IMG/VR virus record: IMGVR_UViG_3300012344_000014
Span: 42,581-106,580 of that record
DNA length: 64,000 nucleotides
Source: a virus
Taxonomy: Duplodnaviria; Heunggongvirae; Uroviricota; Caudoviricetes
Direction: 5' to 3' (one strand)
Of this stretch, positions 4,536 to 37,165 are shown piece after piece; positions within the stretch are counted from its first letter, which is position 1, and each line of letters starts with the position of its first letter. The notes below the pieces were generated by a model that saw only the letters and a program-made list of their open reading frames with translations, did not search any database and was not told the DNA's origin. The position numbers and the translations under genes were made by a program.

Positions 4536-4547
4536 GGAGCTGATATT

Positions 4548-8765: not shown

Positions 8766-8789
8766 ACATAAGGGATAAAGGGTGATTTT

Positions 8790-15904: not shown

Positions 15905-17527
15905 TCATAAGGAAACATTCTATTGGTCGAGCTTCCCGGCGAACTTGTAGTAAATTTCTATTTTCTGCGTTGGTTTGCCATTCTGGTCACAGCGTCTATC
16001 GTGGACTACGATTTTGTCGATCAGCGCATTGAGCATCGGGATAGTCAGTTTGGTTGGATGGGTGTAACGTTTGACCATGTTAGCCCATTCGTTAAGACCT
16101 CTTTGGGTTTCGTCGGTAGCTCGTTGTGCTTCTTCGGCGGCAGCGATGAATTCTTGAAGGGCGGTTTGCTCGTCTTGGTATTTTTTGAGCAGCGTCGAGA
16201 AATTGTTCGGAGTGATGTTTCCTTCGGCGCGATCCTCATAGAGTGAGGCGAGCATCCCGTCTATTTTTCGTAGACGCCGCTTTTTATCATCAAGCTTCGC
16301 TTGCTCCTTGTCCCCACTAGACTGAGTTGCTTTGCGCGAAGAATTCATAATCTCCTGGGCAAAATCTATTTCGTTCCCAGCGAGTGTCGAGGTCCAATAC
16401 TGTATCCGTGATAGCACATAATTGTAGAGGGTAGACTGCCTTATGTAATGCGCGGTGCAGTGTTCTTTACCGAATTCCGAATATTGCCGGCAGACGTAGG
16501 CTTTATCGTCGGGAGCATAGCAGGGACGGGCTTTCAACGCTTTCCCGCAGGTTGAACATTTTAGCAGACCGGCGAAAAGCTGGGGCGTCCCATCCCCGCA
16601 GGAACGACGCCGCCGTGAAATATTTTCCTGAACCCGCTCGAATGTCTCGCGCGATATAAGAGGCGGATGGGTATTTTCTACCCGGTAAAACTCATCAGCG
16701 GAGTTGTGAATTCGTTTTTTGCTTTTGTACGAAATCTTTTGCCTGCGGTAATGAATCGTATTTCCAATGTATGTTTCATCCATCAGTATGGAACGCACGG
16801 CGGAGCTTTGCCAGAAGCTTTTCTTCTCTTCGGCGGCGTTCTCATAGTATTGCGAATACGCGCCGTAGCGGCTATAGCCAACCCAGCCCGGGGTAGGGAC
16901 TTTGGACGTCCTCAGATACCTTGCGATTACATTGTAGCCGTTTCCTTCCAGCGCAAGCGCGTATATCTTTTCGATGATCCAGCGGGTGTCTTCGTCGATG
17001 AGGAGTTTGCCTTTTTCTTTCGGACTCCATATATAACCGAGCGGCGGTGTGGGGCCTAGGCGTTCGCCTTTTTCATATTTCGCTTTTAGCGCGGCCTTTA
17101 CTTTCCGGCTGGTGTCTTTGGCGTACCACTCGTTGAAGAGGTTCTTAAAAGGGGAGAAGTCGCTCATACCTTTCTCGGAGTCTTCGCCGTCGTTTACCGC
17201 CACATAGCGGACGCGCTTCTCAGGGAACACGTATTCCAAGTAGCGATCCACCTGAATGTGTTCGCGCCCCAACCGGGAGAGGTCTTTTGTGATAACGCAA
17301 TTCAACGCGCCTTTGTCAATGTCCGCCATCATACGTTGAAACGCCGGTCGGTCAAAATTTGTACCAGACCATCCATCGTCGACGTATTCATCATAAATCG
17401 CAATGTTGTTGTCTTCGCAATATTGATGAAGAATCCGGCGCTGCGTTTCAATGCTGCCGCTGTCGCCCGGCTCTCCGTCATCGTTGCTTAGCCGCATGTA
17501 AAGAGCGGCTACCCAGGGTTGTTTCAT
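15905..17527 (-). CDS. large serine recombinase (integrase)
   Basis: Resolvase-type N-terminus (ALYMRLSNDDG...SIETQR), recombinase and zinc-ribbon regions and a C-terminal coiled coil. AAGGAGG RBS before ATG 17527. The frame meets TAG at 15920-22, then TGA at 15905-07. Confidence 0.9.
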
Positions 17528-17594
17528 TCCCATCCTCCTTTCGATAGAGAAACAACCCACATTTGCATGCGGGTTGATTATAGCATAAGTGGAA

Positions 17595-17756
17595 TTAAGA
17601 CGCAATTTTAAGATTGCGAAGGATGAATTCTTTGAAGAGGTCGGCGAATGGTTGGCCGTCCGCAGCGAAATGTTCTGTTATAAGAATTTTCACTTTGCCG
17701 GCGTCAAAGCATTTTTGTTCAGTCAATAGTATATTCTTCTCTGCGATTCCGAACAT
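17595..17756 (-). CDS. small hypothetical protein upstream of the recombinase
   Basis: AAAGGAG RBS then ATG 17756; 53 codons (MFGIAEKNILLTEQKCFDAGKVKILITEHF...) ending in TAA 17595-97. Below the track length cutoff. Confidence 0.4.
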   Translation of the reverse strand: MFGIAEKNILLTEQKCFDAGKVKILITEHFAADGQPFADLFKEFILRNLKIAS

Positions 17757-17871
17757 GGCATTCTCCTTTAATTTTTCTCAAACAGTCCAGGCAAATGTAT
17801 TCGTGCGAAAATAATCCAGCCGGTTCATAGAAGACGTTGGTCAGATCACGGCCACACATACAGCAATACAA
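17719..17871 (-). CDS. small Cys-rich (CxxC...CxxC) protein
   Basis: AAAGGAGGG RBS before TTG 17871 (alternative ATG 17859). The sequence YCCMCGRDL...YICLDCLRKI suggests a zinc ribbon. Confidence 0.3.
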   Translation of the reverse strand: MYCCMCGRDLTNVFYEPAGLFSHEYICLDCLRKIKGECHVRNRREEYTID

Positions 17872-17901
17872 AGCAGTCCCTCCTTTGACGAGACAGGTAG
17901 A

Positions 17902-18225
17902 TCATTCCCCATAAAGAATTTCGACCCCATAAGCCTTAGCCGCCTCATGTTCAAGCCGGCAGCCGCGTGCCTGCTCCCAACCATTGCAAAAGTAAGCGGC
18001 ATGACACAGGCTCATATTTTCAAGGCTCTTTGCGAGAAAAGACAAGGGAATCTGAACGACGCCGCGCTCGGTCATCGCCTCCTTGTTGTACCATTCATCG
18101 GTAAAGGGTGTATTGACGACAACATAGCCCATGTTCTCCAGCGCCTTAATGGCACGGTTGCGGGTTTCAATAATTTCCTGTTCGGTTTTGCCAGCCATCG
18201 GCTGAGATAACATTGCCTTCTTCAT
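17902..18225 (-). CDS. DUF4406 / nucleoside 2-deoxyribosyltransferase-like protein
   Basis: 107 aa; the pattern QPMAGK...NP...CHAAYFCNGWEQARGCRLEHEAA recalls DUF4406 (from memory). Confidence 0.5.
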   Translation of the reverse strand: MKKAMLSQPMAGKTEQEIIETRNRAIKALENMGYVVVNTPFTDEWYNKEAMTERGVVQIPLSFLAKSLENMSLCHAAYFCNGWEQARGCRLEHEAAKAYGVEILYGE

Positions 18226-18254
18226 ATTTTAATATTCCTTTCTAAAATGCGATG

Positions 18255-18263
18255 TGTTACAAT
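18255..18263 (+). promoter_or_regulatory. extended -10 promoter (TGTTACAAT)
   Basis: TGnTACAAT lies 20 nt upstream of the small + strand ORF at 18283. Confidence 0.45.
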
Positions 18264-18282
18264 GTAAGTGGAGGTGGCGCAT

Positions 18283-18444
18283 GTGACAGACAACGAGAAA
18301 AAGAAAATAGGCGCAGAACTTGATAAGCTGAGTGAAGCTGTAGAGAAGATCCAAGAATCCGCCGATGTACCAGGGCTCAAAGATGCGCTTGAAGCAATTT
18401 ATAATCTGCTGGAGAAAATTATATCCGAGGAAGGGTGGCAGTAA
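18283..18444 (+). CDS. small + strand hypothetical protein (53 aa)
   Basis: GGAGGTG RBS then GTG 18283. The predicted sequence is helical and acidic, and the hairpin at 18433-18466 follows. Confidence 0.4.
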   Translation: MTDNEKKKIGAELDKLSEAVEKIQESADVPGLKDALEAIYNLLEKIISEEGWQ

Positions 18445-18466
18445 TTATTCTGCCGCCCCATTTTTC
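18433..18466. terminator. hairpin terminator between convergent genes
   Basis: GGGTGGCAG pairs with CTGCCGCCC (one G-U pair), followed by CATTTTTCTC. Confidence 0.5.
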
Positions 18467-18633
18467 TCTGAGGAAAACTGTTCATTGGTAGCTTCAATTT
18501 CTGCAAAGCACGGGACAAAAGTAACGCGCCTCATTTCCTTCATGGCCGCATCATATTCTTTTTGAGCGGCAAGAAGACGCTTTAAGGCTTTGCTCATTTC
18601 CTCTGGTTCAGGGGCGTTAAAAATATATTGCAT
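18445..18633 (-). CDS. hypothetical protein
   Basis: 62-aa ORF in an operon with the neighbouring - strand genes. Confidence 0.45.
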   Translation of the reverse strand: MQYIFNAPEPEEMSKALKRLLAAQKEYDAAMKEMRRVTFVPCFAEIEATNEQFSSEKNGAAE

Positions 18634-18648
18634 TGTATTTATCTCCTT

Positions 18649-19080
18649 TTAATTATATTTCATTTTTTGAAGAAGGCTTCTGTATAGGGGTTCCAGCTGC
18701 GGTGAGGACGCTTTGAATTTTTTCTGTTCGCAATTATGCGTCTTACCGGCTTTATAAAAACCATGACCGACTTCATGATACCGAGAGCGGTCCATATAGG
18801 CATATTCCATTTCAATATCCGGAAGCTGCTTTGTAATGCCTTTATAAAGCATAAAGGGCGGCATATAAACCGTTTTGAAGGCAAGCAGCCGCTCATCATT
18901 AAACCCTGGATCGAATGTAACGGGAGATTTCTCCTTCACGCCGGTTTCAGGAATTGCGGGATGCTGTTTAAGATAAGCGCCGCTGGGCTTAAATTTAACG
19001 ACGCCTTTCTTGCCGCACAGTTTCAGGACGGCTTCATCGAGCTGCTCTTTTGTGCCGGTGATGCGCAGATAGTTTTCCAT
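18649..19080 (-). CDS. hypothetical protein
   Basis: 143-aa ORF with a TAATG-type junction to the upstream gene. Confidence 0.55.
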   Translation of the reverse strand: MENYLRITGTKEQLDEAVLKLCGKKGVVKFKPSGAYLKQHPAIPETGVKEKSPVTFDPGFNDERLLAFKTVYMPPFMLYKGITKQLPDIEMEYAYMDRSRYHEVGHGFYKAGKTHNCEQKKFKASSPQLEPLYRSLLQKMKYN

Positions 19081-19397
19081 TAAACCTTATCCTCCTTCAT
19101 GTTTTCAAGCAGCAGGTTATACAGATCGCGTGTGGTGGCGAGCGGAATGTCTTTGTCCCCGTCCGTTATCATGCCAGGTTTATATCGCCGGCCGAAGTTA
19201 AGCTCCCAACAGAAGTAGCCGGTCCAGTCGTTTTCTTTATCTTTCATAATAATTTCCAGCAGGTTTACAATGGGATCGTCCAGCTGGCACAGTTCAGGAA
19301 GGCGTATGGCGTCGTCTGTTGCATCCGAAACCTTTTCGCAGAAGTCGTTCCATTCCATCAATCGGTGCAGAATTTCATCGAATAAGTCAAATGTCAT
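19080..19397 (-). CDS. hypothetical protein
   Basis: 105-aa acidic ORF. Confidence 0.55.
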   Translation of the reverse strand: MTFDLFDEILHRLMEWNDFCEKVSDATDDAIRLPELCQLDDPIVNLLEIIMKDKENDWTGYFCWELNFGRRYKPGMITDGDKDIPLATTRDLYNLLLENMKEDKV

Positions 19398-19410
19398 TGT
19401 GTTCTCCTTA

Positions 19411-19419
19411 TGATATAAT
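19411..19419 (+). promoter_or_regulatory. extended -10 promoter (TGATATAAT)
   Basis: Perfect TGnTATAAT located 10 nt before the 5' arm of the 19429-19740 element. Confidence 0.55.
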
Positions 19420-19428
19420 TGTGTCGGC

Positions 19429-19740
19429 GGGGAGAGGAGCGGAGGCGATCGCGTTTACATAGCCGCACCTGATGCATCGGGATGCGTAGCGCTATGTGAA
19501 AGGAGCGATGTGCCAATGGAACATGTTTGTGACGTTATGATCGAACTGTTTCTTGAGTACGTCGTCAAAAAGGTGATCTCATAGATGAAAACCTGGCTGA
19601 CGGGGCAACTCGAAAAGGCCAGGAAAAACAAACCTGAGCCTAAGTACACTATTTGTACTTGGGAGCAGCATTGCCGGTAATAGAAACCGGCGGGGTTAAC
19701 GCGATCGCCCCTTAATATTGCTGTACCGCTCCATCTCCCC
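19429..19740 (+). other. stem-closed + strand cassette (structured transcript enclosing a small ORF)
   Basis: The 5' arm GGGGAGAGGAGCGGAGGCGATCGCGTT (19429-55) is complementary to AACGCGATCGCC...CCGCTCC.TCTCCCC (19698-19740), giving helices of 12+7+7 bp. Confidence 0.45.
19516..19680 (+). CDS. small ORF inside the stem-closed cassette (in-frame TAG 19582-19584)
   Basis: AAAGGAG RBS 10 nt before ATG 19516; 54 codons if TAG is read through, ending TAA-TAG. Alternatively a separate ORF from ATG 19585 with its own GGTGA RBS. Confidence 0.3.
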
Positions 19741-19775
19741 GTTCACAAAAGAAAACATTGCAGTCTGCCGCGTGT

Positions 19776-19786
19776 TTGTGTATAAT
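19776..19786 (+). promoter_or_regulatory. candidate -10 promoter (TATAAT) for HicA-like gene 1
   Basis: TTGTGTATAAT lies 20 nt upstream of ATG 19807. Confidence 0.4.
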
Positions 19787-19806
19787 AGCCACAGGAGGTG
19801 GCTTCA

Positions 19807-20019
19807 ATGCATAAGCCGTTAGGTAGCAAAGAGGTTATCTCGATACTCGAAAAGTAGCAGTGGCGCAAGCTCAAAAACCGTGGTAAGGGAAGCCATACGG
19901 TTCTTGAGAACCCTGAGAACGGGCTCCACGTTACGGTACCCCGCAGCAAAGAACTCCCAGCGGGAACCTAGAAGAGTATCGGGCGGCAAACCGGTGTGAA
20001 TTTTGATGATCACCGGTGA
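19807..20019 (+). CDS. hicA: HicA-like mRNA-interferase toxin, copy 1 (in-frame TAGs at 19855 and 19969)
   Basis: AGGAGGTG RBS. The sequence ...EVISILEK-TAG-QWRKLKNRGKGSHTVLENP..HVTVPRSKELPAGT-TAG-KSIGRQTGV matches the HicA pattern (GSH ... VP ... GT.xSI.xQxG) only if both TAGs are read through. Confidence 0.65.
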
Positions 20020-22066: not shown

Positions 22067-23308
22067 TCACCTCATAAACAGCGGGAAATTAAGGGCAAGA
22101 TCGCGAACGTCTTTCGCATAATCCGACGGGTTCGCGCCTTCAAGAATATCGGCGATTGTGTTAGCAATAAATTTTACTTCCGGCTCACGCATGCCGCGCG
22201 TCGTAATGGCGGGAGAGCCGATGCGGATACCGCTTGCCACGTTGGGGCTTAGCTTCTCGCCGGGAATGGTATTCTTGTTAACCGTGATATGACACGCGCC
22301 GAGAGCGGCCTCAATTTCCTTGCCTGTCTTGCCCGCATGGGAGACATTGAGCAGAAGCAGATGATTATCGGTGCCGCCGGTGACAAGACGGACGCCGCGT
22401 TCGGTAAGAACCCGCTCGAACGTCTTCGCGTTTTTTAGCACGTGCTTCTGATACTGCTTAAAGCCGGGTTCTAGCGCTTCCTTAAAGGCAATAGCTTTGG
22501 CTGCGATGATATGTTCCAAGGGGCCGCCCTGCAGGCGGGGGAACACCGCAAGATCAATCTGCCTGGCATACTCGGCTTTGCACAGAATCAACCCGGCGCG
22601 AGGACCGCGTAACGTTTTATGTGTGGTAGTCGTTACAAAATCAGCGTAGGGGACAGGAGAAGGATGAAGCCCCGTCGCGACCAGACCTGCGATATGCGCG
22701 ATATCGGCCAGAAGATAAGCGCCGACGCTATCGGCAATCTCGCGGAACTTTTTGAAATCGATCACACGGGAATAAGCGGAAGCGCCGCAGACGATGAGCT
22801 TCGGCCGATGCTGCTGAGCGAGGTCATAAACCCTGTCGTAGTCGATCAGGCCGGTTTCTTCATTAACCCCGTAGAGCACCGCGTCGTAAAGCCGACCGCC
22901 CTGGCCTTGCGGATTGCAATGGCTCAGGTGGCCGCCGCCGCTGAGCGACATCCCCAGCACCTTATCGCCCGGTTTGAGCACCGCAGCGTAGACGGCGTTG
23001 TTGGTCGTGGTGCCGCAATGCGGCTGCACATTAGCATGTTCGGCCCCGAAGAGCTGCTTCGCGCGCTCAATGGCCAGACGCTCGATTTCGTCAATATACT
23101 CACAACCGCCATAATAGCGCCTGCCGGGATACCCTTCGGCGTATTTACAGGTCAGAATAGAACCGGCCGCGGCCAGCACGGCGGGACTTGGATAATTCTC
23201 CGAGGCGATCAGTTCGATTCCGCCCGTCTGACGCAGATATTCTTTACGAATTAGGGCAGACACTTGCGGGTCAGTCTGCTCGATCGTTTCCAGTTCACTC
23301 AATTTCAT
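22067..23308 (-). CDS. glyA: serine hydroxymethyltransferase
   Basis: 413 aa; LIASENY, YYGGCE and the PLP-lysine motif [12 protein letters not shown]. Confidence 0.9.
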
Positions 23309-23901: not shown

Positions 23902-24378
23902 TCAAACCTTTCTATGTTGGAATTTATAAGTGATATTGGAGTAGTTCATTGCCATACCGTTTTTGCCGGATGACAGCAGCCACATGGACTGATTGGTGTT
24001 CGGTGAGTCGAGCCCACCGCGCTCTTCAATGTAGGGGCCGATTTTGTAGTAATCAACCCAGCACTGAAGGGAGAGATCGAACACCTGCGAGCCGGAATAG
24101 AGGCAGGTTTTAAGTCCCGCCTTCCGCACCGACATCAGGCATCGCGCCAGCGCGTCTCGGTCATTCCCCTCACCCATAAAGCAGACGCAGGTAATTCGGC
24201 CCGCATACTCCTTGAGTAAAGTTGGAAGATCGTGCTCAAGATCATAGCCGACATCCTGCTGCAGCTCCGGCGAGTGACAGCCGGGGCAGCGATGCGGGCA
24301 GTTTGAAACCTCCACCGCGAGACTGATTTCATCAGGGACTTCCTGCAGGACGACGCTGTAACCGGTGTATTTAATCAT
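23902..24378 (-). CDS. nrdG: anaerobic ribonucleotide reductase activating protein (radical SAM)
   Basis: CxxxCxxC motif NCPHRCPGCHS; adjacent to nrdD; start at ATG 24378 (MIKYTGYSVVLQEVP). Confidence 0.85.
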   Translation of the reverse strand: MIKYTGYSVVLQEVPDEISLAVEVSNCPHRCPGCHSPELQQDVGYDLEHDLPTLLKEYAGRITCVCFMGEGNDRDALARCLMSVRKAGLKTCLYSGSQVFDLSLQCWVDYYKIGPYIEERGGLDSPNTNQSMWLLSSGKNGMAMNYSNITYKFQHRKV

Positions 24379-24556
24379 CGGCCGGTACCTGCACATAGAG
24401 GCCGCAGCAACATTCCTTTGTCGTCCGGAACGCAAGGCACGGACATTTGTTATCATCAGTCTTCTCGACCCGGCAGGGGCAATAGCCGTTGTTAGCGGCT
24501 ATTCTCCCCCTGAGCATCGCGACGAAATCCTTATCAGGATTCAGTTTGATTTTCAT
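24371..24556 (-). CDS. ferredoxin-thioredoxin-reductase catalytic-subunit-like small Cys protein, copy 1
   Basis: NPDKDFVAMLRGRIAANNGYCPCR......KCPCLAFR....CCCGLY. Paralogue at 30201-30419. Family call is from memory of the FTR beta CPC...CPC...CHC pattern. Confidence 0.55.
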   Translation of the reverse strand: MKIKLNPDKDFVAMLRGRIAANNGYCPCRVEKTDDNKCPCLAFRTTKECCCGLYVQVPADD

Positions 24557-26855
24557 ATTCCTGTCCACCGAAATACCTCCGGTCATATTCATTCTTGCGC
24601 TCGGCCGACCACTTCGACACGCGGGTCAGATAGCCGATGATGCGCGTGGCATAATCCAGATTTTCACTGCTGCACTTTGGGCACTTCTCCAGCTTGTGCT
24701 TGCTGATATACCCGCAGTCGTTGCAGATGGTATTGGGAACGTTGAAGGTAAAATACGAGCAGCCTTCATGAATCGCGTTGAGAATGAGCAGCTCGTACTG
24801 GCGAGCGGTGAGGTGTTCTTCGAGGTTGATATGGCAGGCGCTGCCGCCGTCGAGATTGCGGATATAACGATCGCCATGCAGCCGAATCTTATCAAGAACC
24901 GTTGTTTTAGGATCTTCAACCACGAAGAAATAGCTGTTATAACACGCTCTCGGGACGGAGAGCCCGTCGGCTTTATCCCATTTGGCGTTCTTCACGCCTA
25001 AGCTTTCGGCTGGCACGTACTCCGTGTTAAACATAACGCCCGGCTCGGCATCGGCCACGTTCCGCCGGTGAATCGTATCAAGGATGAGATCAGTGAACTC
25101 GCCGTAAGCCTTGTTGTCACCGACCGGAATGCCCAGATACTCCGCCGCCTCGACCAGACCGTTGATGCCAACGGTAAGATACTGCTTCTCCGGCGAAACG
25201 AACCCTGCGTCATAAAGCGGGATCATATGCTTGGCCTGCGCATCCTTCACCATCGCGTTATACGCTTTCAAATAGCGATGGACATGCGCGGTCAGATCGT
25301 CAAGCGAGGCTTTGACCTTGGCCAGATCGCCGCCGCAGCCCTGAACGAGCCGGTTGATATTGATGGTCATGACGCGCTTGGAGCCGGTCGCGATGCCGCC
25401 CGCGCCAAGGCTGTAAGTGAACTGGTTTTCAACGATGTTGTTTTTCAGGCGGCAGTTATGCGTAATTACTCCGGAGGGAAGCATGAAGTAGGGCTCGCAC
25501 CCATCATCAACCTCGAGGCAGTAAACATAATCGTATGTATTGGCGCTCTCGATCACCTCAGATACCGGGCGGTATGTATACATCCTGCTTTCGGGATCCC
25601 AACACTGGACTTCATCCCCCTCGACGAGCTCCTTCGCCTGGACGTCTCCGCGCCGGGTGGGGAAAAGATGGTTATCCGTCACCTCATACATATGGCGGGC
25701 GTTCGGCTTGACGTCGATTGTGATAAAATACATCTGACGGCCGGGGAGACGAATGAGAGTCGCGGGAACCACTTCCTCACCGAGCATAACCCGAACACGA
25801 AAATCCTGTTCCTGTTCAAGCATCTGGTAAAGACGCTCTGCAGCCCCGACAAGCAATGTGTTATGCTGGTCCCAGACGGAGAACAGTGTATCCGGCGCAA
25901 AGCAGCACGAACTCAAGCTATCCACGCTATCGCTGGTATAAGTGAAAAAACTGTGCCCTTCGGCATACATCTCGGCGATATGCTTCAGTGCCCGCTGGTC
26001 AACAGCCGTCTTGCCGTTGTTCAGGAGAGAGAACGTTTCGACCGGGAAGGTGATGATCTTGCGGAGCCGCTCCTGATTAAACCACTTCATAAACCGAACC
26101 TGCAGCCACCAGAGGGACTCCCAGAGATCGGTCATTACTGTGCCGTCCGGGAAGGCGAAACCTTCGAACAGCCCGCGGAAATACGGCTCATCAAAATAGG
26201 AAATATTCCAGAAGACGGCCTGATTGCCGCGCGCCGCCGCCGGTTGATTGACCGAGTAGACAACCTGCGCGAAGGTATCGGTGATCACGTTATCAATGGT
26301 GCGCTTGCGGCCGAACAGTTCGGCTTGCGTATCCGGCTTCAGATAATAATCTTCGCCGTATTCCTTGACGAGGAAATAGTTCATATAGGCGAGAAACTCC
26401 GGGGTGGCAATCGCGCCGAGCACCTGAGCGGAAGCGGCGAACACCAGATTGACAAACCCGCCGGCGAAACTTTGCAGCGTCTTGGGAGCGTCCGACGTGC
26501 CGCCCAGCCCCTTCAAGCCGTGCAAAAGAAACGGGTACATAGTGATGCTAGCGCAATAGATCTGCGGGGTCTGGCCGGTTTCATCATGGCAATAGACACG
26601 ATGGGTTTCGAGGTTATCAATGTAGCTGTCGGCCTCTTCCTCGCCGTACATGGCGGTGAGCATATCATGCATCATCAACCGGCTGGTATAGATGCGGCCG
26701 CGCTTACCGCTTTCGGACGCGAGGGTGGCCAGATTCTTTGAACTGACATTGGAGTTTGGATCATAGTCGCTGCTTTCGGCGGCGCATTTTTCATCCATAT
26801 AACGTCTGATGAAATTTGCTTCCGGACGATAGCGCGCATATTTGTCGGGGATCAT
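24534..26855 (-). CDS. nrdD: anaerobic (class III) ribonucleotide reductase, intein-containing
   Basis: 773-aa ORF; Zn ribbon CNDCGY..KCPKC, glycyl-radical motif TRIIGYLTR, and the active-site SSC/CRL motif split by an insert. Confidence 0.95.
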   Translation of the reverse strand: MIPDKYARYRPEANFIRRYMDEKCAAESSDYDPNSNVSSKNLATLASESGKRGRIYTSRLMMHDMLTAMYGEEEADSYIDNLETHRVYCHDETGQTPQIYCASITMYPFLLHGLKGLGGTSDAPKTLQSFAGGFVNLVFAASAQVLGAIATPEFLAYMNYFLVKEYGEDYYLKPDTQAELFGRKRTIDNVITDTFAQVVYSVNQPAAARGNQAVFWNISYFDEPYFRGLFEGFAFPDGTVMTDLWESLWWLQVRFMKWFNQERLRKIITFPVETFSLLNNGKTAVDQRALKHIAEMYAEGHSFFTYTSDSVDSLSSCCFAPDTLFSVWDQHNTLLVGAAERLYQMLEQEQDFRVRVMLGEEVVPATLIRLPGRQMYFITIDVKPNARHMYEVTDNHLFPTRRGDVQAKELVEGDEVQCWDPESRMYTYRPVSEVIESANTYDYVYCLEVDDGCEPYFMLPSGVITHNCRLKNNIVENQFTYSLGAGGIATGSKRVMTININRLVQGCGGDLAKVKASLDDLTAHVHRYLKAYNAMVKDAQAKHMIPLYDAGFVSPEKQYLTVGINGLVEAAEYLGIPVGDNKAYGEFTDLILDTIHRRNVADAEPGVMFNTEYVPAESLGVKNAKWDKADGLSVPRACYNSYFFVVEDPKTTVLDKIRLHGDRYIRNLDGGSACHINLEEHLTARQYELLILNAIHEGCSYFTFNVPNTICNDCGYISKHKLEKCPKCSSENLDYATRIIGYLTRVSKWSAERKNEYDRRYFGGQEYENQTES
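25455..25904 (-). mobile_element. mini-intein (150 aa) in nrdD
   Basis: The insert starts CFAPDT directly after SLSSC and ends VITHN, followed by +1 Cys (CRLKNN). Removal restores the SCCRL-type motif. No endonuclease motifs were seen. Confidence 0.85.
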
Positions 26856-27064
26856 TCAACAGATACTCCTTTGCTGAGATATTTCATGGCCTGCGCAAAG
26901 TTCATGAGATTGCCGTCCTTGTCTTCGAGGGCGGGGACAACCTGAATGCCTTTTGCCTTCAGCTGCTCCGCATCGGAAACAATATTGCATGGGATCTAAA
27001 GCTGCGCGAGCCGCTCGGCAAGCAGGTCGCACATGGGGCAGCCGGGAAGAGTATAAAGCGTCAT
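26852..27064 (-). CDS. NrdH/glutaredoxin-like redoxin (read through in-frame TAG 26996-26998)
   Basis: AAAGGAG RBS then ATG 27064. MTLYTLPGCPMCDLLAERLAQL-TAG-IPCNIVSD...VVPAL carries a CPxC motif and cis-Pro VP. The TGA overlaps the nrdD ATG (ATGA). Confidence 0.7.
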
Positions 27065-27122: not shown

Positions 27123-27628
27123 ATTTGAAAAATTTTATTTTGAATAAGCCACGCGACGCCTACCGCAACCGCATCAGATTCGTCGTCGCAGGCGTAACGC
27201 TGAGGGCCGACATAATCCTCAAGCATCTCGGCCACGCGGTCTTTCTCCGCATTGGCGTCGCCGGTGACGATGCGCTTGGTCATGCGAGGATCGATCTCTT
27301 CAAACTCTCTGCCTGTCAAATGCCAGGCATAAAGATCGGCCACGCCGACAACCTTATGCAAAACCCCGATGGTCTTCATCTGATAGCGGCCGGGGTAAAT
27401 CGCTTTCTCTCGAACCAATATGGCGTCCGGATAAGCGGTCATATATCGCTTCTATTCGCGCGCAATCTCCAGAAGCATCTGGCCATGCGTTTTCTTGCGG
27501 GCATACTTGTTGTTGACATTGCTGAGCTCGCGCACGGTGATCGTATTATTCTCACAATGAAGCAGCGCAAAGCCGGGGCGATGGAGCGAGAGATCGCAGG
27601 CGAAGACATCGACGGCGGTTTCAGGCAC
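27119..27628 (-). CDS. ruvC: RuvC-like Holliday junction resolvase (read through in-frame TAG 27452-27454)
   Basis: GAGGGGA RBS then GTG 27628. The N-terminal half (VDVFACDLSL...LLEIARE) and C-terminal half (YPDAILVRE...TGDANAEKDRV...DESDAVAVGVAW) are in one frame, separated only by TAG. Confidence 0.75.
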
Positions 27629-29691: not shown

Positions 29692-30201
29692 TTACACCCC
29701 TGTGCTGCCAAATCCCCCGTTACGCACACCGGACGCAGTATCGTTCGCGGCCGTCAGATAAGGGAGGAAAATGCCCTGCATAAACTTCGCGCAGCCCGGC
29801 AGACGAACGGGCTCTTCGGCGGTGAGCTTGGCCTGAATATGCCCCTCATTAGACGAATAGTAATAATCGCTGTCGACGATCCCGGTGCTGTTGCGCAGGC
29901 GCAGGCCATATTTGAAACCGAGCCCGGATTTGGGAACGATCGCGAGGACTACGCCGGGCGGCATATGGCAGCGGATACCTGTCGGCAGAGTGAGCGGATA
30001 CTCGGGGAGGACTTCAATTTCATAGGGAAGGAAGAAATCATAGCCCGCCGAACCGGCCGTTGCGCGGCAGGGAAGCGGAATCGCCTCCCAGATCTTACGC
30101 GTTTCAGCCACGCCCAAAGGGGCGATTTGCCTTCCTTTTTCGAACGTCTCCCGGAACTCGTCAAAGGAAACCTTTTCAAAATAGATTTCGTCGGTATTCA
30201 T
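29692..30201 (-). CDS. dut: dUTP diphosphatase
   Basis: Motifs AGSAGYDF, GIVDSDYY and the C-terminal RNGGFGSTG. Confidence 0.9.
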   Translation of the reverse strand: MNTDEIYFEKVSFDEFRETFEKGRQIAPLGVAETRKIWEAIPLPCRATAGSAGYDFFLPYEIEVLPEYPLTLPTGIRCHMPPGVVLAIVPKSGLGFKYGLRLRNSTGIVDSDYYYSSNEGHIQAKLTAEEPVRLPGCAKFMQGIFLPYLTAANDTASGVRNGGFGSTGV

Positions 30202-30419
30202 CAGACATACCCCTCGTTTACAAATTCTTCATCCACGTTCGGATTGCGGATATACATGCCGCAGGCGCAATCGCCATGCTCGCGGAAGTCTTTACAGGGG
30301 CACTTCGTATCCTTCGTCTTTTCCCTCTTGCAGGGGCAGAAACCCGAGTTGGCCTTGATTCGTTTCCGAAGGTTCCAAAGAAATTCAGAGTCTGGATTCT
30401 TGATAAACCCATCAAGCAT
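30201..30419 (-). CDS. ferredoxin-thioredoxin-reductase catalytic-subunit-like small Cys protein, copy 2
   Basis: NPDSEFLWNLRKRIKANSGFCPCK......KCPCKDFR....CACGMY, paralogous to 24371-24556. Confidence 0.55.
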   Translation of the reverse strand: MLDGFIKNPDSEFLWNLRKRIKANSGFCPCKREKTKDTKCPCKDFREHGDCACGMYIRNPNVDEEFVNEGYV

Positions 30420-31080
30420 TCTTTTCCTCCCATGTGATATCATCAAAAATAACGGGAAACAGTTTCTGGAATTCGCAAAGCAACGGGCGCATGAGCGAGC
30501 GCATTTCCGGATAAGCGGCCGACGAGGTGCGCAGCTGAAAAATATGCCGCCATTCCCGCAGGTTTGCCTTCATGACGATGATGCAGGCGGTAGAATTGGG
30601 GAGCACCTTGCGCGCGTCTTCCGCCTTCATGCCGCACTCATACCTGAGATACCGGTAATAAGTTTCGGCATGCTCCATGGACGCATCCCAGCCGCGGGAA
30701 GCGCACCATGTTTTCGCATCCAGATCGGGGCCTTCGGCTGGAAGATAGATATCCGGCCGGATGAAGCTGATATCTCCGGTCTTATCATCTTCGACATAGC
30801 GCTGGCTCTGAACGCAGAAACTGGGGAGCCGGTGCCGTGTGATCTCGGCCAGGACATCGCGCCCGGTGACGAGCTCAACCATGGCGTCGCCAAACTCAAT
30901 AGGGGCTTCATGCCCCCGCTTTATAAGCCCGCCAAGAAACTTGCGCCAGCTATCGGCCGTGATTTTATCATGCGAGCGATAGCAATTACGGGCGGCGTAT
31001 TCGATAAGGCGCAGCGTTTCCAGTGCGCGCTCCGGCGTGGACGGCGAGAGAATCTTAAAAGACTGGTTAATTACCTTCAT
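30412..31080 (-). CDS. thyX: flavin-dependent thymidylate synthase
   Basis: ThyX signature RHRLPSFCVQSQRY. Start at ATG 31080 (MKVINQSFKIL). Confidence 0.9.
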   Translation of the reverse strand: MKVINQSFKILSPSTPERALETLRLIEYAARNCYRSHDKITADSWRKFLGGLIKRGHEAPIEFGDAMVELVTGRDVLAEITRHRLPSFCVQSQRYVEDDKTGDISFIRPDIYLPAEGPDLDAKTWCASRGWDASMEHAETYYRYLRYECGMKAEDARKVLPNSTACIIVMKANLREWRHIFQLRTSSAAYPEMRSLMRPLLCEFQKLFPVIFDDITWEEKNA

Positions 31081-32555: not shown

Positions 32556-32594
32556 CATATAATAAAGGGAACATTTTTCACCCCGCTTTTTCAG
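32556..32594 (-). promoter_or_regulatory. conserved intergenic element, copy 2
   Basis: The - strand reads TGAAAAAGCGGGGTGAAAAATGTTCCCTTTATTATATGAAAAG, between the Pol III alpha stop and the SPFH gene. Confidence 0.5.
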
Positions 32595-35500
32595 TTTGAG
32601 CGGGCGAAACAGAAATTTTTTTGTAGCCGTCCATCCAAAGCTCAGTCACGCCGGGCTTGACAGAACGTTTGCCATCCTGATACTGATAGGCGGGCTTCTT
32701 CTGCCAGCCAAGGAGCTTGATGACGTCGCCGGCCTTAACGGGATCTTTAGCGAAATCAGGCTTGCGAATTTTCATCACACCGGTGTCTCCGGTGGAGACG
32801 CTATAGAGCTTCAGCTTGGGGCTATATTTCTCATCCACATCAATGACGGCGTAGCAGCCCTTCTTTTCGGGATAGACGCTGAGGGGCGCGCCGAAATAGT
32901 CGCACTCGAAGGGAATGATTTCCTCCATGGGGAGATCTTCATCCGGCAGGGAAGACTCCAGATCGCGCAGGACGGCGAGACGTTTCTGCTGCGTCTTCTC
33001 GACGAGCCCTTTATAGAACCGGTTCTCGCCGGACTTGAACTCCTGAAAGAGCTTGAGCAGTTTGGCGGAGCCGCCGAAATCGCTGAAGTATCCCATCTTG
33101 ATGAGCGCGGTGATGCTGGTGGCGTCGAACGCCGGAGACATATCCATATCGTAAAGCAGATCGGTGAAGTAAAGATACAGCGTATCGCGCATTTTATAGA
33201 GCGCGTCGGCGACTTTTCTACTGACGTGCTTGACGGAGGTGAGCGCGTCGGCGATGGTGTGCGCGCTTTCATCGATAAAGAAATCGCGGTTATCCTGCCC
33301 GAACTTGCAAGCGACGACGCGGATGCCGAACGCCCGACGCATTTCCTCCTTGGCTTTGGCGATGCGGTCTTTATCCTTCTTGGCGGCGTAGGCGCGAAGC
33401 AGGGTGGTGTAATACTGATAAGGATAGTGCGCCTTGAGCCATGCGCCGTAAAGACTATCCAGCGCGACGCAGGTGGCATGCGATGCATTAAAAAGATAGG
33501 AGCAGGAATCGTTGATGATCTGCCAGATTTTATCGGTGGTGGCGAGAGCTTCGGCCTCAGTGACATGCTCCTCCTCCACGATGCGCTGAGAGAACGTGGC
33601 GCGGAACTTTTCCTTGAGAGCGAGCACCTTTTCGGGATGCTTCTTCGAGATGGCCTTGATGGCGGCATAGGATTCAGCCCCAGTGAAACCGCCATGCTGT
33701 AGGACTTTCATGATCTGCTCCTGAAACATGAGGAAGCTGTCGGGAATTTCTTTCGTCTGAAGCAGGTTATCCAGCGAGGGGATACCATAATCGAAATGCC
33801 GGCGGGCGAGGAATGTATCGATCATCGACTTGAAGCCCGGGCGGATGGCGGCGACGAACGCGGCCAGCTCGGTAATATTGCGCGGCTTATAGCGGGCGAC
33901 CTTTTCAGTGGCCTTCTCGCGCTCAACCTGATTGAGCCCCATGGTATAGCCTTTGGCGTACATATCCCAGACTGGATCATCCGGCGGGCACATGGCGAGC
34001 AGTTCGTTAACAGAGGGGAGGGGGATATTGGCGGCCTTGTAGGCGGCGGCGTTGATGTTGACGACGGTGACGGAAAGAAGATCGTTTTTTAGATATCCGT
34101 ATCGATCCGCTGTCGCCCCGTCGATAAAAGCGGCATAAATAGTTCCCTTCTTGCCGGTTTTGCTATTGATACGATAAAGCCCAATTTCCCGGCGGATATC
34201 CTGATCGGTCAGAAGATAGGAACAGGGGCTGGGGGAGATGGAATCGACCATGCCAAGATATTTATTGGACATGCGCAGCTGCTCATGATACTCCTTGGGC
34301 ACGTAATCGAACGGATCGATGGCTTCGCGGTCTTCATCGTCTTCGGCGTATTTTACATCAAGCTCATACTTTTTCAAGCTGTCAGAGATGGCGTTAGCCG
34401 TTTCGAAGGCGACGTTGGTAGAACGGCAATACATCTTCCAGGCGGAAAGCCGTTTGAGCGTGCCAAAGGCGACCATCTGCGCGCTATGCCACTCGCCCAT
34501 GACCTCGGCCTGCGCTTTTTCAAACACCTCAACGTTGCCGCAGTTCAGATCCAAATCCGGCATCTGACCGGTGCTCAGGCGCTCTTTGGAAATAAACCGG
34601 TCGGGGTACATGGTGACGGGCATCTTCAAGCGATCAACGGAGGAGAAGCCGAGAAGCATATTCGTCAGGAAACTGACGCCGCTATTATGGACGACCATAT
34701 GATTAAGTAAGTAGCTGTGTGAATTTTCGATATGCAGATCGTAGACTTTGCACTTCTGCCGAGGTAGAAGATTGATTCCAGTAACTGGAATAAGCCAGTA
34801 CTTGTCGTTTTCAGATATTTTGCGTGACATCCCATAAGGAGTTGAATAAACGGGAATAACCCATTTATATGAGGTTTTGCAGTTATAACCGCGTTTATCA
34901 AACCAACGATCTCGCACTGTAAGCCGCGGCGGCTTCTCTCCAGCTTTCATACAAAGAATATTAAAGGCGTTCATCAAGGAAGGAGATGTATTGTCAAAGC
35001 ATTTACGATCCGATTCAGCAAAACAGCCATCGGTACGCATAAGCCCCGATAAAAAAGCTTTTGATTTCTCGTTATCAAGAAGCAAAATCTCATCGGGGAC
35101 AACTTTATCGTTTCCCTTTTTTGAAATGAAATACGTACAGCCAAGATATTTAGCAAAGGAAGAAGCATGCAGGGTAAGTTGAACCAATTTTTTATTTTTA
35201 GCTTTCGCTTCATAAATAGTTCCGCCAACCCGCGATGCCATAGTCTCAAAGATTTTGCGATTGTAAATATTTTTTTCGTTCTCCGCATTGATGGCAATAC
35301 CACAGACATAACTGCCGTCGTTTCTATGTCGAACCCAGCCGTCTCCATACATCATACCAAGGAATTCGTAATAGAGCGCGTCTTTAACGACCCATCTGCT
35401 CATCAACCGAAAACAAGTATCCTTATATTTTTGCGTAAGCGCTTCTTGAGTATCAACACCATAATAATCGAGTATTTCTCTTTTTGCTTTATTGAGATAT

Positions 35501-37089: not shown

Positions 37090-37103
37090 AATACCTCCAC
37101 CCC

Positions 37104-37132
37104 TTGTTATTTCAAATGAGACATGATATACT
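37104..37132 (+). promoter_or_regulatory. sigma-A-type promoter (TTGTTA-N17-TATACT with a TG extension)
   Basis: Lies in the divergent intergenic region between dnaE and the + strand island. Confidence 0.55.
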
Positions 37133-37165
37133 TTGTTTATAATGCACGAAAGGATTTGAACGACA

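What the first reader, a model, noticed from the sequence alone, without database searches (positions are those of the whole stretch)
24371..27064. Phage-borne redox chain around anaerobic dNTP synthesis: NrdH-like redoxin plus two FTR-catalytic-subunit-like proteins
Next to nrdD/nrdG are a CPxC glutaredoxin-like gene (26852-27064) and a ~60-aa protein with the pattern NPD...N.GYCPC...KCPC..FR...C.CG.Y (24371-24556). A second copy of that small protein (30201-30419) lies between dut and thyX. The Cys pattern recalls the catalytic subunit of ferredoxin:thioredoxin reductase. Two copies beside the nucleotide-reduction and thymidylate genes (with glyA at 22067-23308) suggest that the phage supplies its own ferredoxin-linked disulfide-reducing system.
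Basis: partly seen in the sequence, partly recalled or inferred. Interest (0 to 1): 0.5.

Follow-up and report, generated by a model that had tools for sequence, protein, structure and literature searches.

The report
Phage mini ferredoxin-disulfide reductases beside anaerobic RNR
A gut phage carries two roughly 60-residue relatives of the iron-sulfur subunit of ferredoxin:thioredoxin reductase, one inside its anaerobic ribonucleotide reductase operon next to a small glutaredoxin-like protein, so it probably uses host ferredoxin to power DNA-precursor synthesis; the cassette is common in gut phages but untested.

Summary
Both small Cys-rich ORFs (24371-24556 and 30201-30419, minus strand) belong to the FTR-catalytic-subunit / ferredoxin:disulfide reductase (FDR) family. 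Both score just above the Pfam PF02943 threshold, all six family cysteines are in register, and a confident AlphaFold model matches only FTRc/FDR structures.

Copy A overlaps nrdD and nrdG. Copy B overlaps thyX and dut. The NrdD is the thiol-dependent NrdD2 type (three Cys plus Glu; closest solved structure is Thermotoga maritima NrdD), so it needs a protein dithiol reductant.

The CPMC redoxin gene (26852-27064) is real but contains an in-frame TAG. ruvC and a PAPS-reductase-like gene carry the same feature, so this phage very probably reads TAG as a sense codon.

At least 200 IMG/VR contigs encode a relative of the small protein. In 29 of 31 informative dereplicated clusters it lies just downstream of nrdD. 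Cellular homologues in gut Clostridia sit beside a classic thioredoxin gene.

The closest characterised system is Methanosarcina barkeri NrdD3-NrdH-FDR. The phage version is smaller, viral and paired with NrdD2. No ferredoxin gene lies in the window, so the electron source is probably the host. Phage homologues are already annotated (crAss001 gp5, c-st CST077), but I found no paper linking them to RNR.

Verdict: new variant of a known kind, moderate interest.

The parts
26852..27064 (-). Small glutaredoxin/NrdH-like redoxin (70 aa, active site GCPMC). Its stop overlaps the nrdD start. It contains an in-frame TAG at 26996-26998.
   Evidence: Translation. Sub-threshold Pfam hits to Glrx-like and Glutaredoxin. 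PHROG 22 thioredoxin domain, 4e-4. A profile of 30 phage homologues hits PDB glutaredoxin 7c10 (8e-9), MtH895 1ilo (8e-8) and NrdH 1r7h (7e-6). Homologues lie directly upstream of nrdD in 63/80 and 61/80 viral loci. Sequence after the TAG stays conserved in frame.
24534..26855 (-). nrdD, class III ribonucleotide reductase of the thiol-dependent NrdD2 type. It is interrupted by a 150-aa intein-like insert.
   Evidence: NCBIfam TIGR02827, 738 bits against a cutoff of 568. The extein matches T. maritima NrdD 4coi at E 8e-72, with Y-C, SCCR, N-x-E-x-VPAE and RIIGY aligned. The C..CC-R..E..G signature is present in 140 of 150 related viral NrdDs; the others are mostly truncated alignments.
25455..25904 (-). 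Intein-like insertion (150 aa, starts with Cys, ends His-Asn, followed by Cys). It sits exactly between the two cysteines of the SCCR finger-loop motif.
   Evidence: Boundaries read from the sequence. The extein aligns contiguously to TmNrdD once the insert is removed. NCBIfam matches in two stretches. The insert has no Pfam hit.
24371..24556 (-). Mini ferredoxin:disulfide reductase (FTRc-like) copy A, 61 aa, CPC-x9-CPC-x8-CCC. Its start overlaps the nrdD 3' end by 23 nt, and its stop overlaps the nrdG start (ATGATTAA).
   Evidence: Pfam PF02943, 23.6 bits against GA 22. PHROG 38239. AF2 pLDDT 92.6. Foldseek returns only FTRc/FDR. PDB profile hit 4tpu at 4e-5. Overlaps read.
23902..24378 (-). 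nrdG, radical-SAM activase of NrdD (158 aa, CPHRCPGC).
   Evidence: NCBIfam TIGR02826 RNR_activ_nrdG3, E 4e-40, 137 bits (below the curated cutoff of 151.7). CxxxCxxC motif. The start was inferred from the gene call in close relative L083 and from the sequence.
30201..30419 (-). Mini ferredoxin:disulfide reductase (FTRc-like) copy B, 72 aa, CPC-x9-CPC-x8-CAC. Its start overlaps the thyX stop by 8 nt, and its stop overlaps the dut start by 1 nt.
   Evidence: Pfam PF02943, 23.5 bits. Best PDB hit is M. acetivorans FDR 4tpu, E 0.006, aligned from NPD to the last Cys. Overlaps read.
29692..30201 (-). dut (dUTPase), the usual downstream neighbour of the FDR-like gene in related phages.
   Evidence: Pfam dUTPase 1.4e-12. 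dut lies downstream of the FDR-like gene in 48/80 viral loci and in Clostridium phage c-st.
30412..31080 (-). thyX (flavin-dependent thymidylate synthase), upstream neighbour of copy B.
   Evidence: Pfam Thy1 7e-39. Start ATG at 31080 with an AAAGGAGG RBS.
22067..23308 (-). glyA (serine hydroxymethyltransferase). Context only: it supplies the folate one-carbon unit for ThyX.
   Evidence: Pfam SHMT 1.6e-158. Also present next to nrdG in close relative L083.

Best explanation
The two small proteins are minimal, single-domain members of the FTR-catalytic-subunit / ferredoxin:disulfide reductase (FDR) family.

Inferred from homology: each binds one [4Fe-4S] cluster through four of its six cysteines. 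In copy A these are C26, C38, C40 and C49, equivalent to FTR Cys55, 74, 76 and 85. The other two cysteines (C28 and C51, equivalent to Cys57 and 87) form a redox-active disulfide next to the cluster.

Proposed chain: reduced ferredoxin from the Clostridia-like host gives two successive electrons to the mini-FDR. The mini-FDR reduces the CPMC disulfide of the phage glutaredoxin-like redoxin. That redoxin re-reduces the active-site disulfide formed in each turnover of the phage NrdD2-type class III RNR, after NrdG has installed the glycyl radical. Phage dNTP synthesis is thereby tied to the host's low-potential ferredoxin pool, not to formate or NADPH.

Shown here: family membership, gene order and overlaps, NrdD subtype, and conservation of the cassette.

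Inferred: cluster binding, ferredoxin as donor, and the redoxin as acceptor.

Copy B occupies the ancestral position upstream of dut. It is most simply a diverged paralogue with the same chemistry and an unknown, possibly redundant, acceptor.
For: Family membership:
- Pfam PF02943 scores are above threshold for both copies.
- The six cysteines align to Synechocystis FTRc and M. acetivorans FDR.
- The AF2 model has pLDDT 92.6, and its 13 best PDB matches are all FTRc/FDR, including a Grx-FDR fusion, 7pwe.
- All six Cys are kept in 137/156 family representatives and 70/73 unique viral peptides.

Operon structure:
- nrdH-like, nrdD, FDR-A and nrdG overlap one another. thyX, FDR-B and dut also overlap.

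NrdD subtype:
- The NrdD has Cys + CC + Glu, the NrdD2 signature as defined in PMC4493059. It therefore needs a dithiol protein reductant.

Conservation:
- At least 200 IMG/VR contigs carry the gene.
- nrdD lies directly upstream on the same strand in 70/80 loci, which is 29/31 informative clusters at 90% identity.
- In the reciprocal search, 42/80 NrdD-seeded loci carry the gene.
- 40/42 FDR-positive loci also have the Grx-like gene.
- Clostridium phage c-st has Grx - NrdD - FTR-like - dUTPase.

Independent context:
- In 36/80 bacterial loci the homologue is next to a WCGPC thioredoxin gene. That points to thioredoxin-fold proteins as substrates.

Precedent:
- M. barkeri class III RNR is reduced by FDR plus NrdH (Wei et al. 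2015, cited in PMC9176816; the details come from my memory of the abstract).
- M. acetivorans FDR reduces an atypical Trx (PMC6262447).
- The commonest active-site motif of the phage redoxins is GCPKC. The same motif occurs in one of the atypical Methanosarcina Trxs listed in that paper.
Against: - No biochemistry exists for any roughly 60-aa member.
- The Pfam scores are only about 1.5 bits above threshold.
- Both window copies lack the His found between the last two Cys in FTR and in most relatives (C in copy A, A in copy B).
- The CPC-CPC spacer is 9 residues, against 16 in FTRc, and about 35 N-terminal residues of FTRc are absent.
- No ferredoxin gene is in the window.
- The FDR-NrdH co-occurrence is not significant after dereplication (12/13 against 17/26 clusters, p 0.12).
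- About half of related phage NrdD2 loci lack the gene.
- crAss001-type phages carry it without a phage NrdD2, so the family is not restricted to RNR.
- The redoxin gene needs TAG read-through.
- The best 80 loci of each scan are biased toward close relatives of the query.
Confidence: 0.6

Rival explanations
1. The mini-FDRs are general auxiliary metabolic genes. They reduce host thioredoxin or the host disulfide pool from ferredoxin. Their position near nrdD reflects only the clustering of nucleotide-metabolism genes.
For: Cellular homologues sit beside classic thioredoxin, not nrdD, in 36/80 loci. crAss001-type phages carry the gene among tRNA genes with no phage NrdD2, and the crAss001 paper lists it as an auxiliary metabolic gene. 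Lak phages have it about 200 kb from their nrdD. Copy B is not next to nrdD.
Against: In the clade containing the window copies, nrdD is the immediate same-strand neighbour in 29/31 clusters. Copy A overlaps both nrdD and nrdG. No viral locus of 80 has a classic Trx. A dedicated Grx-like gene precedes nrdD in most loci.
Confidence: 0.2
2. The mini-FDR acts without the redoxin. Either it reduces the NrdD disulfide directly, or it serves as the low-potential electron donor that reduces the NrdG [4Fe-4S] cluster for SAM cleavage.
For: The gene usually lies immediately after nrdG, or between nrdD and nrdG as here. 17/80 FDR-seeded loci show no Grx-like gene. NrdG needs a reductant.
Against: From established knowledge of FTR: the cluster works together with the adjacent disulfide and is not a simple one-electron carrier. 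The redox-active Cys pair is conserved in 70/73 viral peptides. 40/42 FDR-positive NrdD loci have the redoxin.
Confidence: 0.1
3. The small proteins are zinc-binding or structural Cys-rich peptides that only resemble FTRc and have no redox role.
For: They are very short. The Pfam scores are marginal. The His86 equivalent is missing. The single-sequence PDB E-values are weak, 0.006 to 0.1.
Against: All six Cys are in register with FTRc/FDR, and the NPD N-terminal motif is shared with FDR 4tpu. The fold search returns only FTRc/FDR. No zinc-ribbon or other Pfam family was hit. The neighbours are thioredoxin-fold proteins in both cells and phages.
Confidence: 0.05
4. The redoxin gene is a pseudogene because TAG is a true stop. 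The phage would then depend on host thioredoxin, and the proposed phage chain is incomplete.
For: There is an in-frame TAG at codon 23. No suppressor tRNA is in the window.
Against: In-frame TAGs also lie inside the single-domain matches of RuvC and a PAPS-reductase-like protein. RuvC homologues in four IMG/VR loci carry TAGs at other positions, one aligned to Gln. All 18 checked genes stop with TGA or TAA. The redoxin sequence after the TAG remains conserved in frame.
Confidence: 0.05

Closest known systems
Methanosarcina barkeri class III RNR electron chain: ferredoxin -> FDR -> NrdH -> NrdD3 (Wei et al. 2015, Biochemistry 54:7019; cited in PMC9176816. The paper is not held here, so the details come from my memory of the abstract.)
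   Same: A class III RNR with an extra active-site Cys is encoded next to a small thioredoxin-fold redoxin, and an FTRc-homologous [4Fe-4S] disulfide reductase is linked to it. The proposed electron path is the same.
   Different: The NrdD here keeps the Glu, so it is NrdD2 and not NrdD3. The reductase is about 60 aa. The system is viral or clostridial, not archaeal. There are two reductase paralogues. Nothing has been tested biochemically.
Methanosarcina acetivorans ferredoxin:disulfide reductase (PDB 4TPU)
   Same: It is the best sequence match. It shares the NPD...CPC...CPC...CxC...LYV core, and a non-His residue (Tyr) lies between the last two Cys. It is a top fold match, TMq 0.67.
   Different: FDR is 173 aa with a C-terminal rubredoxin domain and longer loops (CPC-CPC spacer of about 14 in the alignment, against 9 here). 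The phage proteins are the bare core.
[quoted passage not shown]
   Same: Pfam family PF02943, six-Cys arrangement and fold.
   Different: FTRc is about 110 aa and works as a heterodimer with a variable subunit that is restricted to oxygenic phototrophs (PMC9025218). It has CHC, where the window copies have CCC and CAC, and a 16-residue spacer.
Annotated phage homologues: crAss001 gp5 'putative ferredoxin-thioredoxin reductase' and Clostridium phage c-st CST077
   Same: They belong to the same small-protein family (39-43% identity). c-st has the same Grx - NrdD - FTR-like - dUTPase order.
   Different: crAss001 gp5 lies among tRNA genes with no phage NrdD2. Neither has been studied functionally. 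The crAss001 paper mentions gp5 only as an auxiliary metabolic gene.
Neisseria bacilliformis / Thermotoga maritima NrdD2 with thioredoxin as reductant (Wei et al. 2014; PMC4493059)
   Same: The NrdD here aligns best to TmNrdD and shares the Cys, SCCR and Glu features.
   Different: Those systems use NADPH-thioredoxin reductase and Trx, or an unidentified protein in T. maritima. Here the proposed upstream donor is ferredoxin through a mini-FDR.
Desulfotalea psychrophila glutaredoxin-FDR fusion protein (PDB 7PWE)
   Same: An FDR domain is physically joined to a glutaredoxin. This mirrors the Grx-like plus FDR-like gene pair here, and it is a fold match.
   Different: It is a single fused polypeptide of about 195 aa in a bacterium. 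I did not examine whether it is linked to an RNR.

Membership tests
FTR catalytic subunit / FDR family (Pfam PF02943 FeThRed_B) | Profile score above the curated gathering threshold | tested here: met
   23.6 and 23.5 bits against GA 22. The margin is small. The family profile hits PDB 4tpu at 4e-5.
FTR catalytic subunit / FDR family (Pfam PF02943 FeThRed_B) | Six cysteines arranged CPC...CPC...CxC (four cluster ligands plus a redox-active pair) | tested here: met
   All six are present in both copies and aligned to FTRc and FDR. They are conserved in 137/156 representatives.
FTR catalytic subunit / FDR family (Pfam PF02943 FeThRed_B) | FTRc-like fold | tested here: met
   AF2 pLDDT 92.6. The top 13 Foldseek PDB hits are all FTRc/FDR, TMq 0.58-0.70, probability 0.80-0.99. 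The E-values are only 0.04-0.2 because the protein is small.
FTR catalytic subunit / FDR family (Pfam PF02943 FeThRed_B) | His between the last two Cys (FTR His86) | tested here: not met
   Copy A has Cys and copy B has Ala. 99/137 representatives have His. M. acetivorans FDR has Tyr at this position, so this residue is not universal in the family.
FTR catalytic subunit / FDR family (Pfam PF02943 FeThRed_B) | Binds a [4Fe-4S] cluster and reduces disulfides with ferredoxin as donor | not testable with these tools
   This needs anaerobic purification, spectroscopy and activity assays.
Heterodimeric plant-type FTR | Variable subunit (FTRv) partner | not tested
   FTRv is reported as exclusive to oxygenic phototrophs (PMC9025218). 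I made no specific search of the window. Only the top 25 Pfam families from the window-wide scan were visible.
NrdD2 subtype of class III RNR (thioredoxin-dependent) | Third active-site Cys (SCCR motif) plus bottom-face Cys plus conserved Glu, as defined in PMC4493059 | tested here: met
   IYC, SSC|CRL (after intein removal) and FNTEYVPAE align to TmNrdD Y124-C125, S328-CCR and FNIEQVPAE. Naming that Glu as the diagnostic residue rests on my own numbering and on memory of Wei et al. 2014.
NrdD2 subtype of class III RNR (thioredoxin-dependent) | Glycyl-radical motif, C-terminal Zn ribbon and cognate activase | tested here: met
   RIIGYL and CNDC...CPKC are present. TIGR02827 scores above its cutoff. 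NrdG hits TIGR02826 at 4e-40.
NrdD3-NrdH-FDR system of methanogens | NrdD has the third Cys but lacks the Glu | tested here: not met
   The Glu is present here and in 140 of 150 related viral NrdDs. The system therefore works like the M. barkeri one but is not an NrdD3 member.
NrdH-redoxin family | Small thioredoxin-fold protein with a CxxC site encoded with an RNR | tested here: met
   CPMC is at residues 9-12. The profile hits Grx, MtH895 and NrdH structures. The gene is directly upstream of nrdD.
NrdH-redoxin family | Family-specific sequence signature (C[V/M]QC and WSGFRP motifs; recalled from memory) and a profile score above threshold | tested here: not met
   The sequence has CPMC and no WSGFRP-like motif. 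Pfam Glrx-like scores 20.8 against 26, and Glutaredoxin 17.0 against 22.9. No NCBIfam NrdH hit was found.

The most novel reading that the evidence does not exclude
Many gut phages carry a compact ferredoxin-driven electron-supply cassette for class III RNR: a roughly 60-aa FTR-type [4Fe-4S] disulfide reductase, the smallest of its kind, plus a dedicated glutaredoxin-like carrier. The cassette reroutes the host's low-potential ferredoxin pool into viral dNTP synthesis. The same mini-enzyme paired with thioredoxin would be an unrecognised ferredoxin:thioredoxin reductase system of gut Clostridia. In this phage the two diverged paralogues would serve different acceptors, one in ribonucleotide reduction and one in the dUTP/thymidylate branch.
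Probability: 0.35. Interest if true: 0.7.

Novelty: new variant of a known kind. Interest (0 to 1): 0.5.

Why it matters
If the chain works as proposed, it extends the ferredoxin-FDR-redoxin route for class III RNR, so far known only in one methanogen. The extension covers a large set of gut phages (at least 200 IMG/VR contigs) and the NrdD2 subtype, whose physiological reductant in strict anaerobes is poorly defined.

It would also be a clear case of a phage tapping host ferredoxin for DNA-precursor synthesis. And it would define a minimal, roughly 60-residue FTR-type enzyme that is convenient for mechanistic work.

The adjacent mini-FDR and thioredoxin gene pairs in Clostridia suggest that the same enzyme may be a general, overlooked thioredoxin reductase in gut anaerobes.

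It is not a new principle. The family, the chemistry and the RNR link all have precedents, and phage homologues already carry the annotation.

Tried and rejected
- Megablast of 12 kb of the window against GenBank phages gave no match. The phage has no close sequenced relative.
- The word-seeded homologue search found only 8 relatives. The exhaustive profile search was needed and found 1490 representatives.
- The key papers are not held: Wei 2014, Wei 2015 and Prakash 2018. Definitions were taken from PMC4493059, PMC9176816 and PMC6262447.
- A literature search for phage + FTR + anaerobic RNR returned no papers.
- I looked for a phage ferredoxin. No CxxCxxCxxxCP motif was found, and nothing informative turned up in the small ORFs around the operon.
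- I looked for informative domain fusions among longer family members. Pfam found none. A BFVD entry annotated as dihydrofolate reductase contains an FDR-like part and was not pursued.
- The raw FDR-NrdH association (p 3e-5) was rejected as evidence, because dereplication brought it to p 0.12.
- I considered that copy B serves ThyX. I rejected this as unsupported: ThyX is nearby in 5/80 loci, and both copies share the same closest single-copy relative.
- Close-relative contigs carrying P0001 do not reach the redoxin gene. I therefore could not check whether the TAG is conserved in near relatives.
- The intein-like insert has no Pfam match.

Full report
**1. What is in the sequence**

The region 20-37.5 kb is one minus-strand block of replication and nucleotide-metabolism genes. 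In the direction of transcription the order is:

- dnaE (with an intein), an SPFH protein
- thyX (30412-31080), small Cys protein B (30201-30419), dut (29692-30201)
- three small ORFs, a metallophosphoesterase, a dATP/dGTP diphosphohydrolase, ruvC
- a CPMC redoxin (26852-27064), nrdD (24534-26855), small Cys protein A (24371-24556), nrdG (23902-24378)
- three small ORFs, glyA (22067-23308), phoH, clpP

The genes are tightly packed:

- The redoxin stop overlaps the nrdD start.
- Protein A starts 23 nt before the nrdD stop behind an AGGA motif. Its stop overlaps the nrdG start (ATGATTAA).
- Protein B overlaps the thyX stop by 8 nt and the dut start by 1 nt.

**2. The small proteins are FTRc/FDR homologues**

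- Both hit only Pfam PF02943 (FTR catalytic chain), at 23.6 and 23.5 bits against a gathering score of 22. PHROGs places them in family 38239, of unknown function.
- Against PDB sequences, copy B's best hit is the Methanosarcina acetivorans ferredoxin:disulfide reductase 4TPU. The alignment runs from the N-terminal NPD motif through CPC...CPC...CxC...LYV. Synechocystis FTRc comes next. A 10-sequence profile raises 4TPU to E 4e-5 and FTRc to 3e-3.
- An AlphaFold2 model of copy A is confident (pLDDT 92.6). Its 13 best Foldseek hits in the PDB are all FTRc or FDR chains (TMq 0.58-0.70). They include the glutaredoxin-FDR fusion of Desulfotalea psychrophila. The next hits are noise.
- By alignment, the six cysteines correspond to the four cluster ligands and the redox-active pair of FTR.

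Differences from the known enzymes:

- The proteins are about 60 aa, against about 110 aa for FTRc and 173 aa for FDR.
- The first spacer is 9 residues, not 16.
- The residue equivalent to FTR His86 is Cys in copy A and Ala in copy B. It is His in 99/137 family representatives and Tyr in 4TPU.

**3. The partner genes**

*nrdD.* It contains a 150-aa insertion (25455-25904) that begins with Cys and ends with His-Asn followed by Cys. The insertion lies exactly between the two cysteines of the SCCR finger-loop motif. With the insert removed:

- The 623-aa extein matches T. maritima NrdD at E 8e-72.
- It scores 738 bits on TIGR02827, against a cutoff of 568.
- It keeps the bottom-face Y-C, the SCCR pair and the Glu in N-x-E-x-VPAE.

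PMC4493059 defines NrdD2 as having the third Cys and a Glu, NrdD3 as having the Cys without the Glu, and NrdD1 as having neither. By that definition this is an NrdD2-type enzyme, the kind that forms a disulfide and needs a protein dithiol and not formate. The exact position of the diagnostic Glu is my own numbering.

*nrdG.* It matches TIGR02826 at 4e-40.

*The redoxin.* It has GCPMC. It falls below the Pfam glutaredoxin thresholds. A profile of 30 phage homologues hits glutaredoxin 7C10 (8e-9), MtH895 (8e-8) and NrdH 1R7H (7e-6). It is a small glutaredoxin-like thioredoxin-fold protein that plays the NrdH position. It is not a demonstrated NrdH family member.

**4. The in-frame TAG**

The redoxin ORF has TAG at codon 23 (26996-26998). 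This is not an isolated defect:

- ruvC (27119 to about 27628) has TAG at 27452-27454, and a single Pfam RuvC match spans it.
- A PAPS-reductase-like gene (42202-43062) has TAG at 42715-42717, inside a single PAPS_reduct match.
- Three structural genes on the plus strand appear to have TAG near their N-termini (not verified).
- RuvC homologues in IMG/VR loci L001-L003 and L021 carry in-frame TAGs at other positions, one aligned to Gln.
- All 18 genes checked between 20 and 37.5 kb end in TGA or TAA.

TAG is therefore very probably a sense codon, as in known recoded gut phages. The redoxin is probably made at full length. No suppressor tRNA lies in this window.

**5. Conservation**

- An exhaustive profile search found 1490 cluster representatives, 532 of them at E 1e-10 or better. 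Most are 55-130 aa.
- IMG/VR holds at least 200 contigs with a relative. In the best 80, nrdD lies directly upstream on the same strand in 70, dut lies downstream in 48, and thyX is within 8 kb in 5.
- After clustering at 90% identity, 29 of 31 informative clusters have nrdD nearby.
- Starting from NrdD instead, 42 of the 80 closest viral loci carry the FDR-like gene. It is always on the same strand, usually 400-500 nt after nrdD, which is the space nrdG occupies.
- 140 of 150 of these NrdDs show the full Cys/CC/Arg/Glu/Gly signature. The others are mostly truncated alignments.
- A profile finds the Grx-like gene in 63/80 and 61/80 loci, with the motifs GCPKC, HCPRC and HCPKC.
- FDR-positive loci have the Grx-like gene in 40/42 cases, against 21/38 for FDR-negative loci. 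After dereplication this becomes 12/13 against 17/26 clusters, p 0.12. The trend is suggestive only.
- In GenBank, Clostridium phage c-st has glutaredoxin, NrdD, 'weakly similar to FTR catalytic chain' and dUTPase in that order.

The family is not restricted to RNR:

- crAss001 and its relatives carry a 'putative ferredoxin-thioredoxin reductase' among tRNA genes and have no NrdD2-type gene.
- Lak phages have both genes, far apart.

In bacterial genomes there are 336 loci, mostly from gut Clostridia:

- 21 of the best 80 show the phage-like nrdD context.
- 36 of the best 80 have a classic WCGPC thioredoxin gene next to the mini-FDR. An example is Huintestinicola butyrica L132, 7001-7198 and 7211-7525.
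- None of the 80 viral loci has such a thioredoxin.

In two independent contexts, then, the neighbour is a thioredoxin-fold protein or an enzyme that consumes one.

**6. The two copies**

- Copies A and B are 51% identical to each other.
- Each is closest to the same single-copy gene of L001-L003: 63% for A and 69% for B.
- None of the 160 other viral loci has two copies within the flanks examined.

Copy B keeps the usual position upstream of dut, and copy A has been placed between nrdD and nrdG. This looks like a duplication with divergence in this lineage. Nothing ties copy B specifically to ThyX.

**7. Mechanism**

The best-supported reading is: host reduced ferredoxin, then mini-FDR ([4Fe-4S] plus disulfide), then the Grx-like redoxin, then the NrdD2 active-site disulfide, with NrdG and SAM generating the glycyl radical.

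- Shown here: homology, fold, the Cys set, operon structure, NrdD subtype and conserved synteny.
- Inferred from the family's established chemistry and from the M. barkeri precedent: cluster binding, the ferredoxin donor and the redoxin acceptor. The precedent is cited in PMC9176816 and PMC6262447.

No ferredoxin motif occurs in the window, so the claim that the phage supplies its own system holds for the reductase and the carrier but not for the donor.

Rivals, in order of weight:
1. A general host-thioredoxin reductase.
2. Direct action on NrdD or NrdG.
3. A non-redox zinc peptide.
4. A broken chain because TAG terminates the redoxin.

**8. Comparison and novelty**

Functionally the cassette works like the M. 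barkeri NrdD3-NrdH-FDR system. It fails the NrdD3 membership test because the Glu is present, and its reductase is a stripped-down form without the rubredoxin domain or the variable subunit.

Phage homologues are already annotated, and one paper mentions the crAss001 gene as an auxiliary metabolic gene. I found no paper connecting phage FTR-like genes with anaerobic RNR, although the library is incomplete.

I class this as a new variant of a known kind. It has moderate interest and is directly testable.

Noticed in passing
window 26996-26998, 27452-27454, 42715-42717; possibly also the 5' parts of 2630-3811, 4536-5759 and 8772-9608 (+ strand); IMG/VR loci L001-L003 (9278/9273) and L021 (10622): In-frame TAG codons lie inside conserved domains of the redoxin, RuvC and a PAPS-reductase-like protein. 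RuvC homologues of related phages carry them too. All 18 checked genes stop with TGA or TAA. TAG is very probably a sense codon (one aligned position suggests Gln). No tRNA of any kind lies in the 64-kb window.
   Followed up: partly
window 25455-25904 (- strand), within nrdD: A 150-aa intein-like insertion (Cys...His-Asn/Cys) splits the two adjacent catalytic cysteines of the SCCR finger-loop motif. It has no Pfam match. Several related viral nrdD genes span about 3 kb instead of 1.8 kb and may carry inserts too.
   Followed up: partly
window 32578-37494 (- strand): The DNA polymerase III alpha (DnaE) ORF is 1638 aa. It contains an internal segment ending ...VVHNS that looks like a second intein with a homing-endonuclease-sized insert.
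   Followed up: no
bacterial loci L102-L164, e.g. L132 7001-7198 and 7211-7525: In gut Clostridia genomes a 65-aa mini-FDR (CPC-x9-CMC-x15-CHC) is directly followed by a classic WCGPC thioredoxin gene in 36 of 80 loci. This may be an uncharacterised minimal ferredoxin:thioredoxin reductase operon.
   Followed up: partly
family representatives P0008, P0016, P0018, P0027, P0038, P0039, P0047, P0049, P0080: A subset of the family lacks the second Cys of the first CPC motif (CLS, CPS, CPN, CIS). That Cys is the equivalent of the FTR interchange thiol Cys57. The other five Cys are kept, so these members must work differently.
   Followed up: no
BFVD entry A0A8S5RYM0 (232 aa, Myoviridae sp. ctNQV2) and representative P0076 (232 aa): A viral protein annotated as dihydrofolate reductase has a C-terminal part that matches the mini-FDR model (TMq 0.81). 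Pfam found no domain in P0076. It could be a fusion or a mis-called ORF.
   Followed up: partly
window-wide, e.g. ORFs in 38-64 kb: The window also encodes a phage integrase, a serine recombinase/resolvase, an AbiEii toxin domain, a PARP catalytic domain, three Bro-N and two ANT/KilAC proteins, an ATP-dependent DNA ligase, SpoIID and a collagen-repeat protein. This suggests a large, possibly temperate phage of a Clostridia-like host (GC about 53%).
   Followed up: no
window 16000-20000: GC content falls to 0.47-0.49, against about 0.53-0.56 elsewhere, and only short ORFs are present between about 17.6 and 20.1 kb.
   Followed up: no
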